Positions 40,350 to 45,638 of a DNA stretch of 64,000 bases are shown piece after piece (the first letter of the stretch is position 1; every line of letters starts with the position of its first letter). The notes under the pieces are model-generated. The model was not told the DNA's origin. It made no database searches and worked only from the letters and a program-made list of their open reading frames with translations. A program made the position numbers and the translations under genes. Source of the stretch: Thermodesulfobacteriota bacterium (GTDB lineage: Bacteria > Desulfobacterota > Binatia > Bin18); NCBI GenBank assembly GCA_964291405.2, contig OZ219926.1, forward strand, positions 320,001-384,000, given 5' to 3'.

Positions 40350-40829
40350 ATGACACGATTACACGTCGAAGGTGAAGTCCGGTCACCCCAGGCCTTTAGT
40401 TTTGCCGAGCTACGTACACTCGCGGATCAGATTGAGGACGTGAGCCAGCTTGTTCCTGGCCGAGAGGGCAGCGCCGTCCGCCTGCAAACGGTATTGGAGC
40501 AGGTCGGGCCAAAAGAAGCCGTCCGCTATATCACCCTGGAGTCCACAGACGGAAAATTCTCCGCTAGCGTACCGCTGGAAGCCGTACAAGAGGGGATTAT
40601 TGCCTATCGTTTCAACGATACGGCCCTACCGGAGAACAAAGGCGGGCCGTATCGCTTTTTTATTCCAAACGTTTCAGAGTGCCATGTGGGTGAGGTTGAC
40701 GCCTGCGCCAATGTCAAATTTCTGGGCCGCATCTGCCTGAGCCACGAGAAAGGCCGGGATGTCCGACCGACCAGTCCACAGGCGCATGAGGAGCATCATC
40801 AAAAGCCCGGCCACGAGCATCTGACCTGA
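40350..40829 (+). CDS. Small molybdopterin-binding oxidoreductase-domain protein
   Basis: LHVEGEV...LESTDGKFSASVPL...IAYRFNDTALPENKGGPYRF...ANVKFL. Confidence 0.75.
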   Translation: MTRLHVEGEVRSPQAFSFAELRTLADQIEDVSQLVPGREGSAVRLQTVLEQVGPKEAVRYITLESTDGKFSASVPLEAVQEGIIAYRFNDTALPENKGGPYRFFIPNVSECHVGEVDACANVKFLGRICLSHEKGRDVRPTSPQAHEEHHQKPGHEHLT

Positions 40830-40884: not shown

Positions 40885-41826
40885 CTAGCGCGTGAAATTC
40901 AGCTTCAGGCCCGGACGCGGCCAGTCCATGGCCACCAGCTTGCCCGTTCCCGACAGCGTGATATAGGCGGTTTTCAGATCCGGTCCACCAAAACAGATAT
41001 TGGTCACTACCGGGTCACCGGGCACGGGAACATGCTCGACCGATGAGCCGTCCGGCGCAAACACGGTAATACCACCATTTAAGATAGTCGCCACACACAC
41101 GTTGCCGTTGGCCTCAACCGCTAATGAATCCAGCAGTTGATAGCCCGGCAAACCGGCCACCAGGACGCCACCACCCGGACCGGCCAAGAGCGGACCACCC
41201 GCCCCTTCCACGCGTTCCAACTCACCCGGACCGGTCACGTTCCAGCCCCACACCCGCGCTTCAAACGTCTGGGCCGCATACAAGGTGGCATCGCCAGGGG
41301 CCAAGCCGATGCCGTTCGGTCCCTGGATCGGATAGACGACTTCCTTAATGAGCGAACCGTCCGGCTTGGCATAGTAGAGACCGCACACGTCGCGGTCACG
41401 GTCGCGGATCTTGCCGAAGTCGCTGAACCACATGCCGCCTTGGGCATCAAACACTATATCGTTCGGTCCGCACAGCTTATTGCCGTCGCACTCGGTATAG
41501 ATCGTTTCCACCACCCCAGTGTCGATATCGGCCCGTTGGATATAGCCGTTGGTATAGCTTTCAGGGATACCGTGCGGCACGGTCAACCCCCCTGCCTCTA
41601 TCCACTCAAAGCCGCCGTTATTACACACGTAGCATTTGCCGTCCGGCCCGATGGCCGCGCCGTTCGGCCCACCGCCGGTCTCGACCACGACCTCCTTGGT
41701 CCCATCAGGCTTGACCCGCGTCAGCGTACCGCGCTTGATCTCCGTCAGGATGACGCTGCCGTCATCCATGGCAATCGGGCCTTCGGGGAATTCCAGGCCG
41801 GAGGTTATTTCACGTATTTCTGCCAT
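40885..41826 (-). CDS. SMP-30/gluconolactonase/LRE family protein
   Basis: FPEGP, GPNG, GPNDIVFD, DSLAVE, TNICFGG. Confidence 0.93.
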   Translation of the reverse strand: MAEIREITSGLEFPEGPIAMDDGSVILTEIKRGTLTRVKPDGTKEVVVETGGGPNGAAIGPDGKCYVCNNGGFEWIEAGGLTVPHGIPESYTNGYIQRADIDTGVVETIYTECDGNKLCGPNDIVFDAQGGMWFSDFGKIRDRDRDVCGLYYAKPDGSLIKEVVYPIQGPNGIGLAPGDATLYAAQTFEARVWGWNVTGPGELERVEGAGGPLLAGPGGGVLVAGLPGYQLLDSLAVEANGNVCVATILNGGITVFAPDGSSVEHVPVPGDPVVTNICFGGPDLKTAYITLSGTGKLVAMDWPRPGLKLNFTR

Positions 41827-41901
41827 ATATGCTCTCCTTTCATTTTTCCTCCGGCTGTATGTAGCATGCTCCGGCGGGGGGTGTCAGGTAGCCTCGTCTT
41901 C

Positions 41902-41985
41902 GGGTCTTTTGGGTTTCTTGGGTCTCAAAGACTCAATGGACTCAATAGACCCTGACTCAATAGACTCAATGGACTCAACAGACTC
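41902..41985. repeat. 9-bp-period tandem repeat (GACTCAATR, preceded by GGGTYTYTT units)
   Basis: gactcaatg gactcaata gaccct gactcaata gactcaatg gactcaaca gactc. Confidence 0.85.
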
Positions 41986-43109
41986 TATTCTCCTTTATGC
42001 GAAACGGACAGCCCAGCTCCTGTCCATCCGAGCATGCCGCCGGACAGAACCATGAGAGAAGAGAAGCCGTTTTGCTCTAACAAGTCCGCCGCTCTGACTG
42101 AGCGACGTTCTGTCTTTCATACAAGGACGACCGTTTGGGAACGACTAGGGGCCAGCTCGTTCATTCGTTTGTCTAAATCGGAGACCGGTATCAAGTGAGC
42201 CCCTTCAATATGACCAAGCTCGCCGGTAAATTCATCCAGGTCTCGCACGTCGAGTAGATAGGGTGGATTTTCTTCTCCCAGCATTTCGCTGAGCTGAAGG
42301 GGGGAGATGTCTTTCCACGTTTTCTCCAGGGGAATACGAGTCTGAAAGGGGAGGAGCAACAACTGCCCGAGGTGAAACGCATCTCGATAATATGACAGTC
42401 CGATCTCAAGGCCCAGTTGCCCTAAAGCCGGCTCGGCCCGGTAGGTTCCGCACAGCCGATCCCACCATGGGATAGAAAAGCCGAAGTTTGCATTGGTTTC
42501 CACCGTTCGTGTGGAATGATGAATCCGATGCATGTCTGGCGTAACCAGGAACCAACGTAGACGCCGGTCAAGCCTTTCAGGAAGATTGACATTACTGTGG
42601 TTAAAAACAGACGTGGCGTTCAGGATGATTTCAAAGGCGATAGCGGCCCAAGCAGGTGCCCCCAGCGCAATAATGACAACCGCTTTGTAGGCGAGAGAGA
42701 GAAAGACCTCGATGGGATGAAAACGGAGGCCGGTCGTGGCATCGACTCCAAGATCAGCATGATGGACCTGATGCACACGCCACACAAGGGGGACGGCATG
42801 GAAGAGGCGGTGCTGGATGTAGAGGGCGAAGTCGAGGACCAGGAGGGTGACCGGGACGGCGAACCAGAAAGGCGCTGACAGCCAATGCAGCAGTCCAATC
42901 TGGTGTTCCGCCGCAAAGGTGGCCGCCATATATGCCACGGCACCGACCAGAGCCCATACCAAAACCGCATTGAGCAGAGTAAGCCCCAAGTTCGTAGGCC
43001 AGCGTTCCTCTCTTCTTTGAGCAAGAATACGGCGCGGGGAGAGAAATTCCCAGGTTACCATTATGGAAAAGACCGCGAGAAAGGGCCAAAAGCGCATCCA
43101 CATTTCCAT
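41985..43109 (-). CDS. Sterol desaturase/fatty-acid hydroxylase fused to a rhodanese domain; selenoprotein (UGA 42119-42117)
   Basis: His boxes HRLFH, HQVHH, HRIHH; rhodanese LLDVR..EF..GHIEGA..VVLV-TGA-KTERRS..LSGGMLGW, TAG at 41985; SECIS-like hairpin. Confidence 0.85.
42087..42107 (-). promoter_or_regulatory. Candidate bacterial SECIS hairpin
   Basis: CGTCGCTC-AGTCA-GAGCGGCG beginning 10 nt after the in-frame TGA. Confidence 0.7.
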
Positions 43110-43217
43110 AACGAATACTCCTCGAAAAACGGTCGGATTCGCCCCTACCTTTTCCACCCTACGTTGGCTTTGTCTCCGGTTATGCAGTTGAGAGTTTTCT
43201 TGTGAAAGCCATAAATT

Positions 43218-43238
43218 CATGGCATAGCATATGTCATG
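43218..43238. promoter_or_regulatory. Putative antitoxin operator palindrome
   Basis: CATGGCATA-GCA-TATGTCATG overlapping the antitoxin start codon. Confidence 0.55.
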
Positions 43239-43505
43239 TCAACATCGTTCCACAATATGCACGTTCCCCTTTCGACCGATATCCATACTCGTCTCAAAGC
43301 AGAAGCAAAACGCTCCGGGCGGCCCGCAACTGTCCTGGTCCGGGAAGCTATTGAAACATGGCTTGAGGAACGGGAAAGAGCGGCGCTGCATCACGCTATT
43401 GCCCACTACGCCCAGGCGGTTGCCGGTACTTCCGACGACCTGGATGCGGATGTGGAAAAAGCTGCCGCCGAACATCTTCTTGCTAGTGAACGAGGCGAGG
43501 TGTGA
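43236..43505 (+). CDS. Ribbon-helix-helix antitoxin
   Basis: HVPLSTDIHTRLKAEAKRSGRPATVLVREAI; GTGA overlap with the toxin. Confidence 0.85.
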   Translation: MSTSFHNMHVPLSTDIHTRLKAEAKRSGRPATVLVREAIETWLEERERAALHHAIAHYAQAVAGTSDDLDADVEKAAAEHLLASERGEV

Positions 43506-43849
43506 GACGTGGTGAGGTCTACTGGGCACATTTAACGCCTCGCTCCGGCTCGGAGCAGAGGGGTCGCTGGCCCGTTGTCATCGTGTCCCATGATGGATTC
43601 AATCAGGTACACGGCTGGCGTTCCGTCATTATCGTACCGCTCTCAACATCTCCTTCGCAACGGCAGCGCGGTCCGACAGCCGTTGCCCTGCCCAAAGGCG
43701 CAGCGGGGTTGAGTAAGGACGGCATCGCGTTATGCCATCAAGTCACGACGCTTGACCGGACGAAGTTGTCGCGCCGTATCGGTACGCTGCCAACGAACAT
43801 TATGGACACGATAGACGCCAGCCTCAAAGCTGCGTTGTCGCTGTGGTAA
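43502..43849 (+). CDS. PemK/MazF family toxin
   Basis: MRRGEVYW...GSEQRG...PVVIVS...ALCHQVTTLD. Confidence 0.93.
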   Translation: MRRGEVYWAHLTPRSGSEQRGRWPVVIVSHDGFNQVHGWRSVIIVPLSTSPSQRQRGPTAVALPKGAAGLSKDGIALCHQVTTLDRTKLSRRIGTLPTNIMDTIDASLKAALSLW

Positions 43850-43885
43850 GCCCACCGACAGGGGAAGAGGTATGATGACAGTTTC

Positions 43886-44092
43886 CTAGCCCTGCTCGTC
43901 TCCGTCCACGCTTGACTTGACCGCGCGATAGAATGCGAGGCTGCCATGCGCGGTCGCCAGGGAACCCTGAATGGTCACCTTGGCAAACCCGCCCTGTCGG
44001 AAGAGCTGCGGCAGGAGGCCGGCCACATTGTCCCGGGTGCGTGAAAAACCATCGAGAAGTTGTATCGGCCAGAACAACCAACGCATCAGGCA
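43886..44092 (-). pseudogene. C-terminal remnant of a class I SAM-dependent methyltransferase
   Basis: LMRWLFWPIQLLDGFSRTRDNVAGLLPQLFRQGGF...GSLAFYRA; no SAM-binding N-terminus upstream. Confidence 0.55.
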
Positions 44093-44371
44093 TTCATGTA
44101 TCTCCAGAAACAACGGACTTATCCTGTGTTTGTGGGAGGTTCACGATCCAGTTCGGGTATTCTCTTGATTTACTCCGGCTAAAGTGTTTGATGAGATGAA
44201 AGGCCATCATGTAGGCGGGAATCTTCCATCTAACGCCAGCCCCGTAGATTCTTTTCCAGATGACGTTCGGCTTTTCTATAACGTTAGACCGCCTTCCTTC
44301 TTCCATGTGGCAGCAGCCAGACTATTGGCTCCGGCAGGCATTCTTTATTGGGCGACCCAAGGTGCCAGCCC

Positions 44372-44402
44372 CGTAAGTCGGCTTAGCGGAGCATAAGCCG
44401 AC
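44372..44402 (+). repeat. REP-like palindrome (GTAR-prefixed)
   Basis: CGTAA-GTCGGCTTA-GCGGAGCA-TAAGCCGAC-A. Confidence 0.65.
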
Positions 44403-44414
44403 AACCCTCTCGGA

Positions 44415-44741
44415 TCATATTTCCGGCTCACCCATCCAGGTCGGGAGGTCGCGCTGGCTATGGAGCACACGCCACACATCAATGTGGTCGTCCCGCTCGA
44501 CATAGAACACCAAGTAGGGGTAGCGCTTCAACGGCCAGGCGCGTAGGCCCGGCAAATCCAACTCCTGAGCGTAACGGGGTGCCCCCGACGCGGGATGCCG
44601 AGCGATATGCCGGTACGCCTTTTCCAGCGCGTCAATAAAGCCCAATCCGACCCGCTCTCCGCCCTCGTCCAGATAGTGATCGAGGGCTTGGTCAATATCG
44701 CGGTTGGCCAACGCCCGAGGAATGACCGGCTTGACGCTCAC
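44415..44741 (-). CDS. parE: ParE family toxin
   Basis: RALANRDIDQ...HPASGAPRY...YPYLVFY...VWRVLH. Confidence 0.92.
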   Translation of the reverse strand: MSVKPVIPRALANRDIDQALDHYLDEGGERVGLGFIDALEKAYRHIARHPASGAPRYAQELDLPGLRAWPLKRYPYLVFYVERDDHIDVWRVLHSQRDLPTWMGEPEI

Positions 44742-44989
44742 CCTTGCCGCCGTTGCTCCGCTCTTTTATGGAGCGTCTTGCGTAGCGTGTCGAAATAGGC
44801 CGCATCGGCAACGGACGATGGCTCAGACGCGGCTCCTGCGAGCAACAGAGCGCGTAAGTGCTGCCGGTCCTGGTCTTTGCGGATCAACTCACGGACATAC
44901 TCGCTACTGCTCCCGTAGCCGCGCTGCGCGACCTGCTCGTCTACAAAGGACTTGAGAGAGACTGGCAGGGAAATGTTCATAGTGCTCAT
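44738..44989 (-). CDS. parD: ParD family antitoxin
   Basis: MNISLP...FVDEQV...YGSSSEYVRELIRKDQ; TTGGCAAA repeat upstream at 45008-45026. Confidence 0.92.
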   Translation of the reverse strand: MSTMNISLPVSLKSFVDEQVAQRGYGSSSEYVRELIRKDQDRQHLRALLLAGAASEPSSVADAAYFDTLRKTLHKRAEQRRQG

Positions 44990-45073
44990 CTGCCCAAGAT
45001 AGATTGTTTGGCAAAAATTGGCAAACTCGTAGGTCAGGTTAGTGAAGCGTAACCTGACCTCCCCAGCCACGGC

Positions 45074-45370
45074 TTAGCGTTTCCGTGATGCTCTTGCCAG
45101 GCGGCGGGCCGTATCCTGATAGATGCTTGCACGTGAGCCTATGGCACTCACTTCGAGAACCGTTCGGGTTGTCCGGTAAATAATCCGAACGCGCCCAACC
45201 CGGAAACTCCACCACCCGGAGAGTTCACGCCGTAACGGCTTTCCTGCCGATGGATGTTCCCGAAGGATGTCTAAAGCTGCCCGAATGCGTTGCTTGAGTG
45301 CCGGGTGCATGGCTCGGATGGCCGCCTGGACTTCGCGCGGGAGTCGGACCCGGCGCACGCTATGCCTCAT
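45074..45370 (-). CDS. RelE/ParE family toxin
   Basis: GKPLRRELSGWWSFRVGRVRIIY...IGSRASIY. Confidence 0.9.
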   Translation of the reverse strand: MRHSVRRVRLPREVQAAIRAMHPALKQRIRAALDILREHPSAGKPLRRELSGWWSFRVGRVRIIYRTTRTVLEVSAIGSRASIYQDTARRLARASRKR

Positions 45371-45638
45371 CAGAAAAGAGCTGGTCGAGGTCGGTATCCG
45401 TCAACGGCTTATCGCGGCCCTGTTTAAGCTGCTGCATTCCGGTGTGGATCTCTTTGACCAACTCCTGGTCCGACAGAACAGCGAGGGTCTCCTGCCAGCT
45501 CTCAAACTCCTCGTAGCTCACGAGGACGGCGGTCGCCTGACCGTTTTTGGTAATCGTAACCTCTTCGTCGGTAGTCGCAATGTCGGCCACGAGTTGACTC
45601 AGCTTGGCCTTTACCTCAGCTAACGGCAGGATACGCAT
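45360..45638 (-). CDS. Phd/YefM antitoxin
   Basis: LAEVKAKLSQLV...ITKNGQATAVLVSYEEFESWQETL. Confidence 0.93.
   Translation of the reverse strand: MRILPLAEVKAKLSQLVADIATTDEEVTITKNGQATAVLVSYEEFESWQETLAVLSDQELVKEIHTGMQQLKQGRDKPLTDTDLDQLFSDEA

What the first reader, a model, noticed from the sequence alone, without database searches (positions are those of the whole stretch)
41985..43109. Membrane di-iron desaturase/hydroxylase fused to a selenocysteine rhodanese
Seen: the ORF 'ends' at VVLV-TGA in mid-rhodanese, at the catalytic Cys position. The frame continues for 43 codons with the remaining rhodanese motifs (KTERRS..AADLL..GF..LSGGMLGW), and a clean 8-bp hairpin starts 10 nt after the UGA. 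The N-terminal domain keeps its His boxes. Known: Sec-rhodaneses exist, and sterol-desaturase-family enzymes need an electron donor. I know no characterised Sec fusion of the two. Inference: a new selenoenzyme coupling S/Se transfer or redox chemistry to membrane di-iron catalysis, possibly in metal(loid) handling. UGA decoding could also switch between long and truncated forms depending on Se supply.
Basis: partly seen in the sequence, partly recalled or inferred. Interest (0 to 1): 0.85.

Follow-up and report, generated by a model that had tools for sequence, protein, structure and literature searches.

The report
Selenocysteine rhodanese fused to membrane oxygenase
This is a real, conserved gene for a membrane iron-oxygenase joined to a sulfur-transfer domain whose catalytic cysteine is replaced by selenocysteine, a combination not found described in the papers searched and cut short in public protein databases.

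Summary
On the minus strand, 41985-43109 encodes 374 aa. An FA_hydroxylase (di-iron, eight His) domain is followed by a complete rhodanese domain. An in-frame TGA (42117-42119) sits exactly where homologues and solved rhodaneses have the catalytic Cys.

The genome has SelA, SelB, SelD and tRNA-Sec, and uses TGA as a normal stop elsewhere. The TGA and the 43 codons after it are kept in 15 of 28 congeneric genomes. dN/dS after the TGA is 0.15, the same as in the oxygenase domain.

Other lineages encode the same pair as adjacent genes: the oxygenase, then a TM- or DedA-anchored rhodanese, again with TGA. At least 36 of the 120 best database clusters are fusions annotated as ending right at this position; none continues with Cys.

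A hairpin 9-12 nt after the UGA recurs in 14 of 16 distinct sequences. It is partly forced by the RRSxRAA coding sequence, but its codons are unusually fixed.

Function is not shown. My reading is a cytoplasmic-face selenol that shuttles a chalcogen or metalloid, coupled to oxidation of a lipophilic substrate. A link to arsenosugar genes exists only in a sister clade. It is a new variant of known kinds.

The parts
41985..43109 (-). Complete coding sequence of the 374-aa selenoprotein (ATG 43107-43109, Sec codon inside, TAG stop 41985-41987)
   Evidence: Homologues start at the same MEMW/MEIL/MELL methionine, so ATG 43109 is preferred over the upstream ATG at 43220.
43118..43123 (-). Shine-Dalgarno-like GAGGAG, 8 nt upstream of the ATG
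   Evidence: Read directly from the sequence. Not tested further.
42444..42851 (-). FA_hydroxylase (membrane di-iron oxygenase) domain, residues 87-222. The whole membrane part is residues 1-258 (42336-43109).
   Evidence: PF04116 103.2 bits against a cut-off of 31. Eight His-box histidines are conserved in at least 90% of 50 sequences. The AF2 model shows long helices over 2-23, 33-68, 81-105, 132-149 and 153-170.
42018..42302 (-). Rhodanese domain, residues 270-364, spanning the TGA
   Evidence: PF00581 55.2 bits against a cut-off of 22.2, covering profile positions 2-101 of 102. pLDDT is 88-94 in the model, and the part after the UGA forms H334-346, E352-355 and H358-364. Foldseek gives TM 0.87-0.93 to single-domain rhodaneses.
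42117..42119 (-). In-frame UGA read as selenocysteine (residue 331), at the catalytic Cys position of the active-site loop U-K-T-E-R-R-S
   Evidence: It aligns with the catalytic Cys of PDB rhodaneses (5ve3 ...VTVCRAGGRS). It also aligns with the Cys of the 8 MerC-like-, DedA- or MBL-fused relatives read. It is conserved as TGA in 15 of 15 congeneric copies and in 27 distinct sequences overall. No other letter is listed at these three positions in contigs of 4 runs from 4 studies.
42087..42107 (-). SECIS-like hairpin: 8-bp stem (one G-U) and AGUCA loop, 9 nt after the UGA
   Evidence: A hairpin in the same place occurs in 14 of 16 distinct sequences, with G-containing loops. Codons in the arms are fixed. 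No compensatory pair appears in the ungapped alignment. One C-G to G-C exchange is seen between lineages once the loop length is allowed to differ.
40885..41826 (-). Downstream same-strand gene for an SMP-30/gluconolactonase/LRE-like (SGL) protein. It is a probable operon partner within this genus only.
   Evidence: PF08450 152.2 bits. It is a same-strand downstream neighbour in 6 of 6 congeneric loci L031-L036. In L036 it starts about 25 nt after the fusion gene's match ends. It was not seen next to the Sec forms of other lineages.

Best explanation
SHOWN. The gene encodes a 374-aa inner-membrane selenoprotein. The N-terminal two thirds are a di-iron oxygenase of the FA_hydroxylase superfamily (sterol desaturase / lipid hydroxylase kind). 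The C-terminal third is a complete single-domain rhodanese whose catalytic cysteine is selenocysteine, encoded by UGA 42117-42119. The genome has the full SelA/SelB/SelC/SelD machinery. The oxygenase and the Sec-rhodanese are a conserved two-module unit. They are fused here and in many metagenomic relatives. In other lineages they are adjacent genes, the rhodanese carrying its own TM anchor or a DedA/TVP38 membrane domain. One protein (P0021) has all three domains in a single chain.

INFERRED. SelB recognises the hairpin that begins 9 nt after the UGA. The rhodanese sits on the cytoplasmic face, the same side as the His boxes. This rests on the known topology of the superfamily, which I recall rather than tested.

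MECHANISM I COMMIT TO (inferred, about 45% in this form). The selenolate of U331 acts as in other rhodaneses. It forms a covalent Se-X intermediate, most likely a Se-S persulfide-type adduct and possibly a Se-As(III) or Se-Se adduct. It hands that group to, or takes it from, a lipophilic substrate held in the membrane domain, while the di-iron centre carries out the O2-dependent oxidation of that substrate. Sec rather than Cys appears to be fixed: no Cys form of the pair was found. A selenol next to an O2-activating iron site stays nucleophilic and recovers from over-oxidation, which is a general property of Sec that I recall and did not test here.
For: Domains and read-through. Sec machinery: SelA 524.7 bits; SelB wing domain 79.9 bits; tRNA-Sec 69 bits beside selA with anticodon TCA; SelD 308.1 bits. 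TGA is an ordinary stop in this genome, ending 575 of 1582 ORFs of 400 aa or more.

Conservation: 15 of 28 genomes of the genus, including this one, have the full-length gene with exactly one TGA at 85-100% identity. All 15 read VVLV-TGA-KTERRS. By NG86 over 105 pairs, dN/dS is 0.148 for the 38 codons after the TGA, 0.259 for the 98 rhodanese codons before it, and 0.147 for 230 oxygenase codons.

Wider family: 27 distinct Sec-rhodanese sequences were collected. In 25 of them the oxygenase's third His box lies 417-1102 nt upstream on the same strand. For L136, one search shows an adjacent oxygenase fragment. At least 36 of the 120 best database clusters are fusions annotated as ending at the residue before the active site, and 0 continue with Cys. 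Among the best 150 of 25,896 hits in 1.84 billion representatives, none joins the oxygenase to a complete rhodanese.

The U aligns with the catalytic Cys in PDB rhodaneses and in the 8 Cys relatives read, which are fused to MerC-like, DedA or MBL domains.

Hairpin: it is present 9-12 nt after the UGA in 14 of 16 distinct sequences. Arm codons are fixed across 10 divergent sequences: Arg+5 CGY 10/10, Ser+6 UCN 10/10, Ala+9 GCG 10/10, Arg+8 NGA 7/9. The genome's own usage is GCG 0.30 and NGA-Arg 0.14. Other conserved Ala/Gly/Val/Leu columns use 3-4 codons.

Structure and reads: mean pLDDT 78.8, with the rhodanese at 88-94 including the part after the UGA. In contigs from 4 studies no other letter is listed at the three TGA positions, while the neighbouring synonymous site 42120 varies in all four runs, as a minority contig in X2.
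Against: No experiment and no expression data: no RNA run holds the stretch. The hairpin shows no compensatory change in the ungapped 13-sequence alignment (0 of 6 pairs). It is largely dictated by the conserved RRSxRAA peptide: 8.6% of synonymous recodings fold as well and 13.7% have a stem of 8 bp or more. Two of the 16 distinct sequences (L040, L136) have their best hairpin elsewhere. Rfam gave no hit in the window. Nothing identifies the substrate; the best curated family for the oxygenase is OlsE at 81.6 bits against a cut-off of 475. Eleven of the 28 congeners carry neither the fused nor the split form, so the protein is dispensable. I did not measure whether the two domains touch, or how far the Sec lies from the iron site.
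Confidence: 0.72

Rival explanations
1. Substrate variant A. The unit belongs to reactive-sulfur (persulfide/sulfane sulfur) metabolism. It would resemble the soluble persulfide-dioxygenase-rhodanese fusions and the operons controlled by ArsR-family persulfide sensors. The Sec-rhodanese would carry sulfane sulfur, and the membrane oxygenase would act on a sulfur-modified or sulfur-accepting lipid.
For: The closest solved relatives of the rhodanese domain include persulfide dioxygenase-rhodanese fusions (5ve3/5ve4, E 1.5e-10 by sequence; top Foldseek hit), CoA-persulfide reductase-rhodanese proteins, and YgaP. The active-site loop is of the six-residue sulfurtransferase type and aligns without gaps to VCRAGGRS. 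Seven of 80 loci have an ArsR/SmtB HTH plus rhodanese regulator next to the oxygenase, two of them (L037, L038) with the Sec-rhodanese. The scanned regulator also has a weak BigR-like hit (32 bits, cut-off 155).
Against: No sulfide:quinone reductase, persulfide dioxygenase or sulfite exporter was seen next to any Sec form. As far as I recall, no FA_hydroxylase member is known to act on sulfur compounds. The regulator's match to BigR is far below the cut-off.
Confidence: 0.3
2. Substrate variant B. The unit is an accessory of organoarsenical (arsenosugar/arsenolipid) metabolism. The selenol would bind or thiolate a trivalent or dimethylated arsenical, and the oxygenase would modify the lipid or sugar part.
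For: Among 80 loci with the closest oxygenase homologues in species genomes, 30 have an upstream TIGR04283 gene (scanned representative 279.2 bits, cut-off 182). Twenty-one also have a downstream TIGR04282 gene (201.8 bits, cut-off 134). NCBI names both families 'arsenosugar biosynthesis glycosyltransferase'. In a quick tree that clade (36 rows, SH-aLRT 86) is sister to the Sec-associated clade (12 rows, 86), with a joint node at 83. ArsM-like genes lie upstream in 5 of 80 loci. The window's genome encodes ArsS (445.8 bits), an adjacent ArsM-like gene, TIGR04283, TIGR04282 and an ArsM (360.5 bits). Several arsenic enzymes have curated Sec forms, judging by the NCBIfam names seen.
Against: None of the 10 Sec-rhodanese loci among those 80 has an arsenosugar gene beside it, so the overlap is 0. 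In this genome the arsenic genes are megabases away. ArsS is found in 54 of 61 relatives and TIGR04283 in 57 of 61, regardless of the fusion. The profile therefore does not discriminate, and congeners without the fusion keep ArsS. The methyltransferase upstream of the gene in congeners is a generic class I enzyme, not ArsM (best hit CpaM, 92 bits, below cut-off). Tree support is modest, the tree is rooted at its midpoint, and only the quick search finished. The 'arsenosugar' names of TIGR04282/04283 come from gene association. I found no paper testing them; only searched for these accession numbers, and searched arsenosugar gene clusters.
Confidence: 0.22
3. The rhodanese domain transfers no group. 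It is the reductant, redox relay or redox sensor of the di-iron centre, taking the place of the cytochrome b5 or ferredoxin partner of other family members.
For: Other members of the superfamily need an electron donor, and some carry it as a fused domain; this is established knowledge that I recall. No ferredoxin or b5 gene is adjacent. The fusion puts the selenol near the catalytic face.
Against: A single selenol is a two-electron, covalent-chemistry residue and a poor one-electron donor to a di-iron site. No resolving Cys is conserved next to U331: the loop is U-K/R/N-x-E-x-R-S. Stand-alone orthologues (272 aa) work without any rhodanese in 70 of the 80 loci.
Confidence: 0.12
4. The UGA mainly acts as a stop or a selenium-dependent switch. 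The main product would be the 330-aa oxygenase with a rhodanese stump, and the full-length form would be made only when selenium is plentiful.
For: Sec insertion is never fully efficient, which is general knowledge. Stand-alone oxygenases exist, so a truncated product could still be active. Gene callers report the 330-aa form.
Against: The 43 codons after the UGA are as constrained as the oxygenase domain (dN/dS 0.148 against 0.147), so the long form is what selection sees. A rhodanese cut at the active-site loop lacks one strand and two helices of the fold. In split systems the rhodanese gene alone carries the UGA, where a 'switch' would simply yield a useless fragment.
Confidence: 0.1
5. Artefact or pseudogene: a sequencing error or a recent nonsense mutation in a Cys-rhodanese fusion.
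For: It is a single in-frame stop in a metagenome-assembled genome.
Against: The same TGA occurs in 15 assemblies of different species of the genus and in 27 distinct sequences from several phyla. In contigs of 4 independent studies no other letter is listed at its three positions. The sequence after the TGA is under purifying selection. No Cys form of the fusion was found.
Confidence: 0.02

Closest known systems
Selenocysteine-containing rhodanese-related sulfurtransferases. They have been predicted since 2005-2008 (PMC1088965 seen as a search listing only; passages read in PMC1976440 and PMC2398784). Five 'forms' are tabulated in the 2026 review PMC13188914 (table passages read), including NCBIfam NF041203 and TsoB NF045694.
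   Same: A rhodanese domain with Sec in the active-site region, found by in-frame TGA. In all of them function is predicted, not tested.
   Different: The tabulated motifs are UxxS, UxxG, CxU, UxxG and UxxxxU; here the loop is U-x-x-E-x-R-S in all 10 divergent sequences compared. The protein scores 34.5 bits on NF041203 (cut-off 115) and does not hit TsoB. None of the listed forms is described as fused or paired with an FA_hydroxylase: the words 'desaturase' and 'fatty acid hydroxylase' occur 0 times in PMC13188914, and 'desaturase' 0 times in PMC9312934. Supplements could not be read.
FA_hydroxylase / sterol desaturase superfamily (Pfam PF04116). The nearest curated family is ornithine-lipid hydroxylase OlsE (NF052566).
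   Same: A membrane domain with the three His boxes (eight His) and a Pfam score well above the cut-off.
   Different: The OlsE score is 81.6 against a cut-off of 475, so it is not OlsE. No solved structure matches the domain by sequence at E <= 0.01. No member known to me carries a rhodanese or a selenocysteine.
Persulfide dioxygenase-rhodanese fusion proteins (PRF of Burkholderia phytofirmans, PDB 5ve3/5ve4/5ve5; CstB-type proteins)
   Same: An O2-activating iron enzyme fused to a C-terminal rhodanese with the same loop type. It is the best sequence and fold match for the rhodanese part.
   Different: The iron domain there is a soluble mononuclear MBL-fold enzyme and the residue is Cys. The MBL-rhodanese paralogues in these genomes (motif VCRAGVRS) are Cys proteins of another subfamily.
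Membrane-anchored rhodaneses: E. coli YgaP (PDB 2moi, 5hbl), and the Cys proteins found here with MerC-like (PF03203) or DedA/TVP38 (PF09335) membrane domains
   Same: A rhodanese tethered to the cytoplasmic membrane. The MerC- and DedA-fused proteins share 46-51% identity with this rhodanese domain, including the ...VLV[C/U]KT..RS..AA... loop.
   Different: Those read have Cys, not Sec, and other membrane partners. YgaP is a distant match (E 1.1e-05).

Membership tests
Bacterial selenoprotein (SelB-dependent UGA decoding) | In-frame UGA conserved among orthologues and aligned with Cys in homologues | tested here: met
   15 of 15 congeneric copies and 27 distinct sequences carry TGA at this column. 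The column holds Cys in the 8 MerC-like-, DedA- or MBL-fused relatives read and in PDB rhodaneses.
Bacterial selenoprotein (SelB-dependent UGA decoding) | Sequence downstream of the UGA evolves as coding sequence | tested here: met
   dN/dS is 0.148 over the 38 codons after the UGA, against 0.147 in the oxygenase domain (105 pairs). Pfam and the AF2 model need this part to complete the domain.
Bacterial selenoprotein (SelB-dependent UGA decoding) | selA, selB, selC (tRNA-Sec) and selD present in the genome | tested here: met
   all are above the curated cut-offs, and the tRNA anticodon is TCA.
Bacterial selenoprotein (SelB-dependent UGA decoding) | SECIS stem-loop shortly downstream of the UGA, with a G in the apical loop | tested here: inconclusive
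   A hairpin of 5-9 bp lies 9-12 nt after the UGA in 14 of 16 distinct sequences, with G-containing loops. Arm codons are fixed. But 0 of 6 pairs are compensatory in the ungapped alignment, and 8.6% of synonymous recodings fold as well. No dedicated bacterial SECIS model was available, and Rfam gave no hit. The SECIS criteria I applied are recalled.
Bacterial selenoprotein (SelB-dependent UGA decoding) | Selenium shown in the protein | not testable with these tools
   Needs 75Se labelling or mass spectrometry.
Rhodanese (PF00581), sulfurtransferase type | Domain score above the gathering threshold, and a nucleophile at the start of a six-residue active-site loop | tested here: met
   55.2 bits against a cut-off of 22.2. 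U-KTERR-S aligns without gaps to C-RAGGR-S of 5ve3. Fold TM is 0.87-0.93 to single-domain rhodaneses.
Rhodanese (PF00581), sulfurtransferase type | Thiosulfate:cyanide sulfurtransferase or persulfide-carrier activity | not testable with these tools
   Needs an enzyme assay.
FA_hydroxylase superfamily (PF04116) | Domain score above threshold and three His boxes (HX3-4H, HX2-3HH, HX2-3HH) | tested here: met
   103.2 bits against a cut-off of 31. H100/H104, H113/H116/H117 and H194/H197/H198 are conserved in at least 90% of 50 sequences.
Ornithine lipid hydroxylase OlsE (NF052566) | Score at or above the curated cut-off of 475 bits | tested here: not met
   81.6 bits.
Rhodanese-related (seleno)protein NF041203 | Score at or above the curated cut-off of 115 bits | tested here: not met
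   34.5 bits for the fusion and 42.2 bits for a DedA-rhodanese(Sec) partner.
Arsenosugar biosynthesis gene set (ArsS TIGR04167, ArsM, TIGR04282, TIGR04283) | Gene neighbourhood or co-occurrence with the set | tested here: inconclusive
   Thirty of 80 homologous loci (a sister clade) lie between or next to TIGR04283/TIGR04282. But 0 of the 10 Sec-rhodanese loci do. The set is dispersed elsewhere in this genome. It is present in 54-57 of 61 relatives whether or not the fusion is.

The most novel reading that the evidence does not exclude
The oxygenase/Sec-rhodanese pair (with DedA in some lineages) is a dedicated membrane machine that builds or remodels a lipid-linked organo-chalcogen or organo-arsenic compound, for instance a thiolated or selenated arsenolipid or another S/Se-bearing lipid. 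The selenol would deliver the heteroatom to a carbon or arsenic centre activated by the di-iron site. That would be a reaction type not known for either family. It would also explain why Sec, not Cys, is fixed in every copy found.
Probability: 0.15. Interest if true: 0.85.

Novelty: new variant of a known kind. Interest (0 to 1): 0.62.

Why it matters
First, it adds a selenoprotein family or architecture that I could not find in the current tabulations or in NCBIfam. It occurs in several lineages: record titles name Binatia, Methylomirabilota and a 'delta proteobacterium'. In every copy seen, Sec was never replaced by Cys. That is unusual, because by the tabulations I read in PMC1976440 most selenoprotein families have many Cys homologues.

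Second, public protein sets hold it only as a truncated 'sterol desaturase family protein' of about 330 aa; at least 36 of the 120 best clusters are of this kind. Both the domain and the selenium dependence are therefore invisible to annotation-based surveys.

Third, it ties a rhodanese to a lipid-type di-iron oxygenase by fusion, by gene order and through a DedA domain. This gives a concrete handle on two large groups of uncharacterised bacterial proteins: the 272-aa stand-alone oxygenases of methanotrophs and nitrite oxidisers, and the membrane-tethered rhodaneses.

Fourth, the runs that hold the gene are mostly labelled sponge metagenomes, so it may bear on selenium, sulfur or arsenic chemistry in sponge symbionts.

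Tried and rejected
1. Expression: no RNA holder was listed for the stretch, so nothing can be said about expression.
2. Rfam gathering-threshold scan of the whole window: 0 matches. ARAGORN on the window: 0 tRNAs.
3. Phylogenetic profile of ArsS and TIGR04283 against the fusion: both are near-universal (54/61 and 57/61), so the profile tells nothing.
4. The upstream methyltransferase of congeners as ArsM: rejected. It is a generic class I enzyme, with CpaM at 92 bits below cut-off as its best hit. My BLAST cluster had lumped it with true ArsM-like genes. In the window only a 75-aa remnant is left.
5. Other rhodanese hits flagged '1 TGA' (G028:C636, G044:C70): these are MBL-rhodanese Cys proteins whose TGA is simply their stop.
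6. NCBIfam scans of the neighbours (PNP_UDP_1, SGL, the small Oxidored_molyb ORF) gave nothing above cut-off.
L167 (51%, residues 2-369) was not resolved by my pattern.
8. The careful tree did not finish, so only the quick tree is reported.
9. Earlier findings of this scan: nothing by place or sequence, and one unrelated note by words.
10. Complex prediction was not used. Its text admits proteins read by code 11 only, and the rhodanese partner needs the UGA read through. Whether the two modules dock is therefore left open.
11. DNA of the Cys forms (MerC-like- or DedA-fused) was not available, so I could not check whether they lack the hairpin.
12. Literature searches for the fusion found no paper describing it. 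Supplementary tables of the selenoproteome papers are closed and may list it.
Full report
WHAT IS THERE. On the minus strand an ORF starts at ATG 43109, with GAGGAG 8 nt upstream, and under table 11 ends at TGA 42117-42119 after ...SQTVVLV. Read through, the frame runs 43 more codons to TAG 41985-41987 and gives 374 aa. Pfam finds FA_hydroxylase (residues 87-222, 103.2 bits, cut-off 31). It also finds a rhodanese domain covering 2-101 of 102 profile positions (residues 270-364, 55.2 bits, cut-off 22.2). The TGA is residue 331, the first residue of the active-site loop U-K-T-E-R-R-S. It aligns without gaps to the catalytic Cys of solved rhodaneses, for example ...VTVCRAGGRS of the persulfide dioxygenase-rhodanese fusion 5ve3. 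The eight histidines of the three His boxes are conserved in at least 90% of a 50-sequence alignment.

IS THE TGA READ AS SELENOCYSTEINE? The genome has SelA (524.7 bits) and SelB (79.9 bits on the wing domain). It has tRNA-Sec next to selA (69 bits, anticodon TCA) and SelD (308.1 bits). TGA is not reassigned: it ends 575 of 1582 ORFs of 400 aa or more.

In a six-frame search of 61 genomes, 15 of the 28 genomes of the genus (this one included) have the full-length gene with exactly one TGA at 85-100% identity. All 15 read VVLV-TGA-KTERRS. Two further congeners carry a split form, and 11 have neither form. Over 105 pairs, dN/dS is 0.148 for the 38 codons after the TGA. It is 0.259 for the 98 rhodanese codons before it and 0.147 for 230 oxygenase codons. 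Selection therefore sees the part after the TGA as protein.

Contigs of four runs from four studies cover the site. None has another letter listed at 42117-42119, while the adjacent synonymous position 42120 differs in all four runs, as a minority contig in X2 (58 further differences were not shown). A sequencing error, a recent nonsense mutation and a recoded genome are all excluded.

THE HAIRPIN. The stem CGUCGCUC/GAGCGGCG with loop AGUCA lies at 42107-42087, with 9 nt between it and the UGA. The 57 nt from the UGA fold better than 200 of 200 dinucleotide shuffles (z = -3.35). Four relatives give z from -1.2 to -2.1. The arms encode the conserved peptide RRS-x-RAA, so I ran controls.

With the genome's own codon usage, 8.6% of 3000 synonymous recodings reach the same energy and 13.7% have a stem of 8 bp or more. 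The hairpin in one sequence is thus not significant. RNAalifold on 13 sequences gives a 6-bp consensus with wobble changes only, and 0 compensatory pairs.

In favour of a selected structure, across 10 divergent sequences the arm codons are fixed: Arg+5 CGY 10/10, Ser+6 UCN 10/10, Ala+9 GCG 10/10, Arg+8 NGA 7/9. The genome's own usage is GCG 0.30 and NGA-Arg 0.14. Other conserved Ala, Gly, Val and Leu columns use three or four codons. In 14 of 16 distinct sequences the best local hairpin (5-9 bp) starts 9-12 nt after the UGA and has a G-containing loop. One lineage with a different peptide (KRS-A/S-S-AA) keeps it as GCGCUC/GAGCGC, which exchanges C-G for G-C at the sixth pair. L040 and L136 deviate. 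I call the SECIS criterion plausible but not proven.

HOW WIDE, AND IN WHAT FORMS. The word-indexed search of 5.8 billion proteins returned 7094 hits. Of the best 120, at least 36 are oxygenase-rhodanese fusions of 326-383 aa at 52-91% identity. One, P0021, is 559 aa and has a DedA domain between the two modules. Their annotated ORFs end at the residue before the active site (...VTV...VPV...VLV). Two end differently, and none continues with Cys. In the exhaustive HMMER search of 1.84 billion representatives (25,896 hits), none of the best 150 joins the oxygenase to a complete rhodanese; four stop at query residue 328-330.

Where DNA was available I collected 27 distinct Sec-rhodanese sequences. 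In 25 the oxygenase's third His box lies 417-1102 nt upstream on the same strand. For L136, one search shows an adjacent oxygenase fragment. Only L133 has no oxygenase in the 1.7 kb available.

The architectures are these:
- Fused: this genus, plus L040, which has an assembly frameshift.
- Oxygenase followed by a short-TM rhodanese: L030, L037, L038, L041, L149.
- Oxygenase followed by a DedA/TVP38-rhodanese: L026, L029 and L216 by motif; L178 and L224 by gene spacing and similarity to L216.

The same rhodanese subtype occurs with Cys on other membrane domains. Of 19 hits to residues 262-374, 5 are the truncated fusions, 10 are proteins of about 234-246 aa (5 of them with a MerC-like Pfam hit), 3 are DedA fusions and 1 is an MBL fusion. 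All 8 that I read have Cys at the aligned column.

CONTEXT AND FUNCTION. In the window the gene is followed, 158 nt downstream, by an SMP-30/gluconolactonase-like gene. That gene is a same-strand neighbour in 6 of 6 congeneric loci. Upstream, toxin-antitoxin cassettes have displaced a class I methyltransferase, leaving a 75-aa remnant. That methyltransferase is generic, not ArsM. The genome has a single copy of this oxygenase subfamily. No curated NCBIfam model reaches its cut-off; the best are OlsE at 81.6 of 475 bits and NF041203 at 34.5 of 115 bits.

Among the 80 best loci from one genome per species:
- 10 carry the Sec-rhodanese.
- 30, mainly Methylococcales, have the stand-alone oxygenase preceded by a TIGR04283 gene. 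In 21 of these a TIGR04282 gene follows. One representative of each was scanned, and both scored above cut-off.
- 5 have ArsM-like genes upstream, all below cut-off.
- 7 have an ArsR/SmtB regulator with a C-terminal rhodanese.
No locus has both a Sec-rhodanese and the transferases.

In a quick tree the Sec-associated clade (12 rows, SH-aLRT 86) is sister to the transferase-flanked clade (36 rows, 86), with a joint node at 83. The tree is midpoint-rooted and the careful search did not finish. The window's genome encodes ArsS, an ArsM-like neighbour, TIGR04283, TIGR04282 and an ArsM, all far from the window. ArsS (54 of 61) and TIGR04283 (57 of 61) are near-universal among relatives, so they do not track the fusion. 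The arsenic link is a lead, not a finding.

STRUCTURE. AlphaFold2 on the 50-row alignment gives mean pLDDT 78.8 and pTM 0.67. The rhodanese domain is at 88-94, and the part after the UGA forms one helix, one strand and one helix of the fold. Foldseek against the PDB matches only the rhodanese part: TM 0.87-0.93 to single-domain rhodaneses, with a persulfide dioxygenase-rhodanese fusion as the top hit, and also EanB and YgaP. The tools did not give me inter-domain distances.

HABITAT. Twenty runs from 11 studies hold part of the stretch. Most are labelled sponge metagenome. Record titles of the closest genomes read Candidatus Binatia.

MECHANISM. Shown: a Sec-decoded two-module membrane protein, whose modules stay together through fusion and fission across lineages. 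Inferred: the rhodanese faces the cytoplasm beside the His boxes, which rests on superfamily topology that I recall. U331 acts as the rhodanese nucleophile and carries a covalently bound chalcogen or metalloid, while the di-iron centre oxidises a lipophilic substrate.

Which substrate remains open: sulfane sulfur (about 0.3), an organoarsenical (about 0.2), or something else. A pure electron-donor role (about 0.12) and a selenium-dependent truncation switch (about 0.1) are less likely, for the reasons given under the rivals. That only Sec forms of the pair were found suggests the selenol is needed, plausibly because it works beside an O2-activating iron site. This is an inference.

NOVELTY. 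Sec-rhodaneses have been predicted since 2005-2008 and are listed in five forms in a 2026 review. I read passages of PMC1976440, PMC2398784, PMC9312934 and PMC13188914. The loop motif here (UxxE) and the pairing with an FA_hydroxylase appear in none of those passages. The words 'desaturase' and 'fatty acid hydroxylase' are absent from PMC13188914, and 'desaturase' from PMC9312934. Seven full-text searches found no paper on the fusion. Supplementary tables were closed and may list it. I rate it a new variant of known kinds: real, widespread, mis-annotated, and of unknown function.

Noticed in passing
window 41897-41985: Two 9-nt tandem arrays lie directly after the gene's stop codon: TCTTGGGTC x3.2 and CTCAATAGA x7.3. 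Contigs from other runs show a 15-nt deletion and a 3-nt insertion here. In the congener L036 the SGL gene instead follows about 25 nt after the fusion gene's match ends. It looks like a strain-variable repeat; function unknown.
   Followed up: partly
window 43236-45638: A block of toxin-antitoxin-like cassettes sits between the selenoprotein gene and the PNP_UDP_1/MetW genes. It includes an 89-aa ORF plus a PemK/MazF-like toxin (43236-43849, +), and several small minus-strand ORFs at 44415-45638 that look like ParE/RelE-type pairs by their translations. In the congener L032 an intact 232-aa class I methyltransferase lies between PNP_UDP_1 and the fusion gene, with no toxin-antitoxin ORF listed there. 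In the window only its last 75 aa survive (43886-44113, -).
   Followed up: partly
G000:C3 about 1346073-1347230 (outside the window): A second probable selenoprotein: a class I methyltransferase-like ORF with an in-frame TGA in the motif ...SISCMH-U-MSVSL... (a CxxU arrangement). The frame continues after the TGA.
   Followed up: no
L042-L109 (30 loci, mainly Methylococcales), e.g. L107:2324-3729 and L045:3001-4421: A conserved gene trio: a TIGR04283-family transferase, a 272-aa FA_hydroxylase, and a TIGR04282-family transferase. The oxygenase is not covered by any curated NCBIfam model, and I found no paper on it. It may be an unrecognised member of the pathway these transferases belong to.
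   Followed up: partly
L037:2308-2988, L038:2304-2987, L039, L058, L073, L095, L108: An ArsR/SmtB-family HTH regulator with a C-terminal rhodanese domain (motif AYCRGPYC) lies next to the oxygenase gene. By record titles the loci come from Binatia, Methylomirabilota, Alpha- and Betaproteobacteria and a cyanobacterium. Its effector is unknown.
   Followed up: partly
P0121-P0133 (database proteins): The same rhodanese subtype occurs with Cys fused to a four-helix MerC-like domain or to a DedA/TVP38 domain. This is a family of membrane-tethered rhodaneses without described function.
   Followed up: no
G000:C3:39564-40481 (outside the window): SelD lies in a 759-aa open frame, so it is probably fused to another domain.
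   Followed up: no
G006:C1:393892-394005: A congener without the gene keeps a 38-residue fragment that is 79% identical to the part after the UGA (residues 336-373). This looks like a relic of gene loss.
   Followed up: no
window 40350-40829 (+): A small 159-aa ORF has only the C-terminal half of an Oxidored_molyb domain (56.7 bits) and a weak SoxC-like hit. It converges on the SGL gene and is conserved in the congener L036.
   Followed up: no
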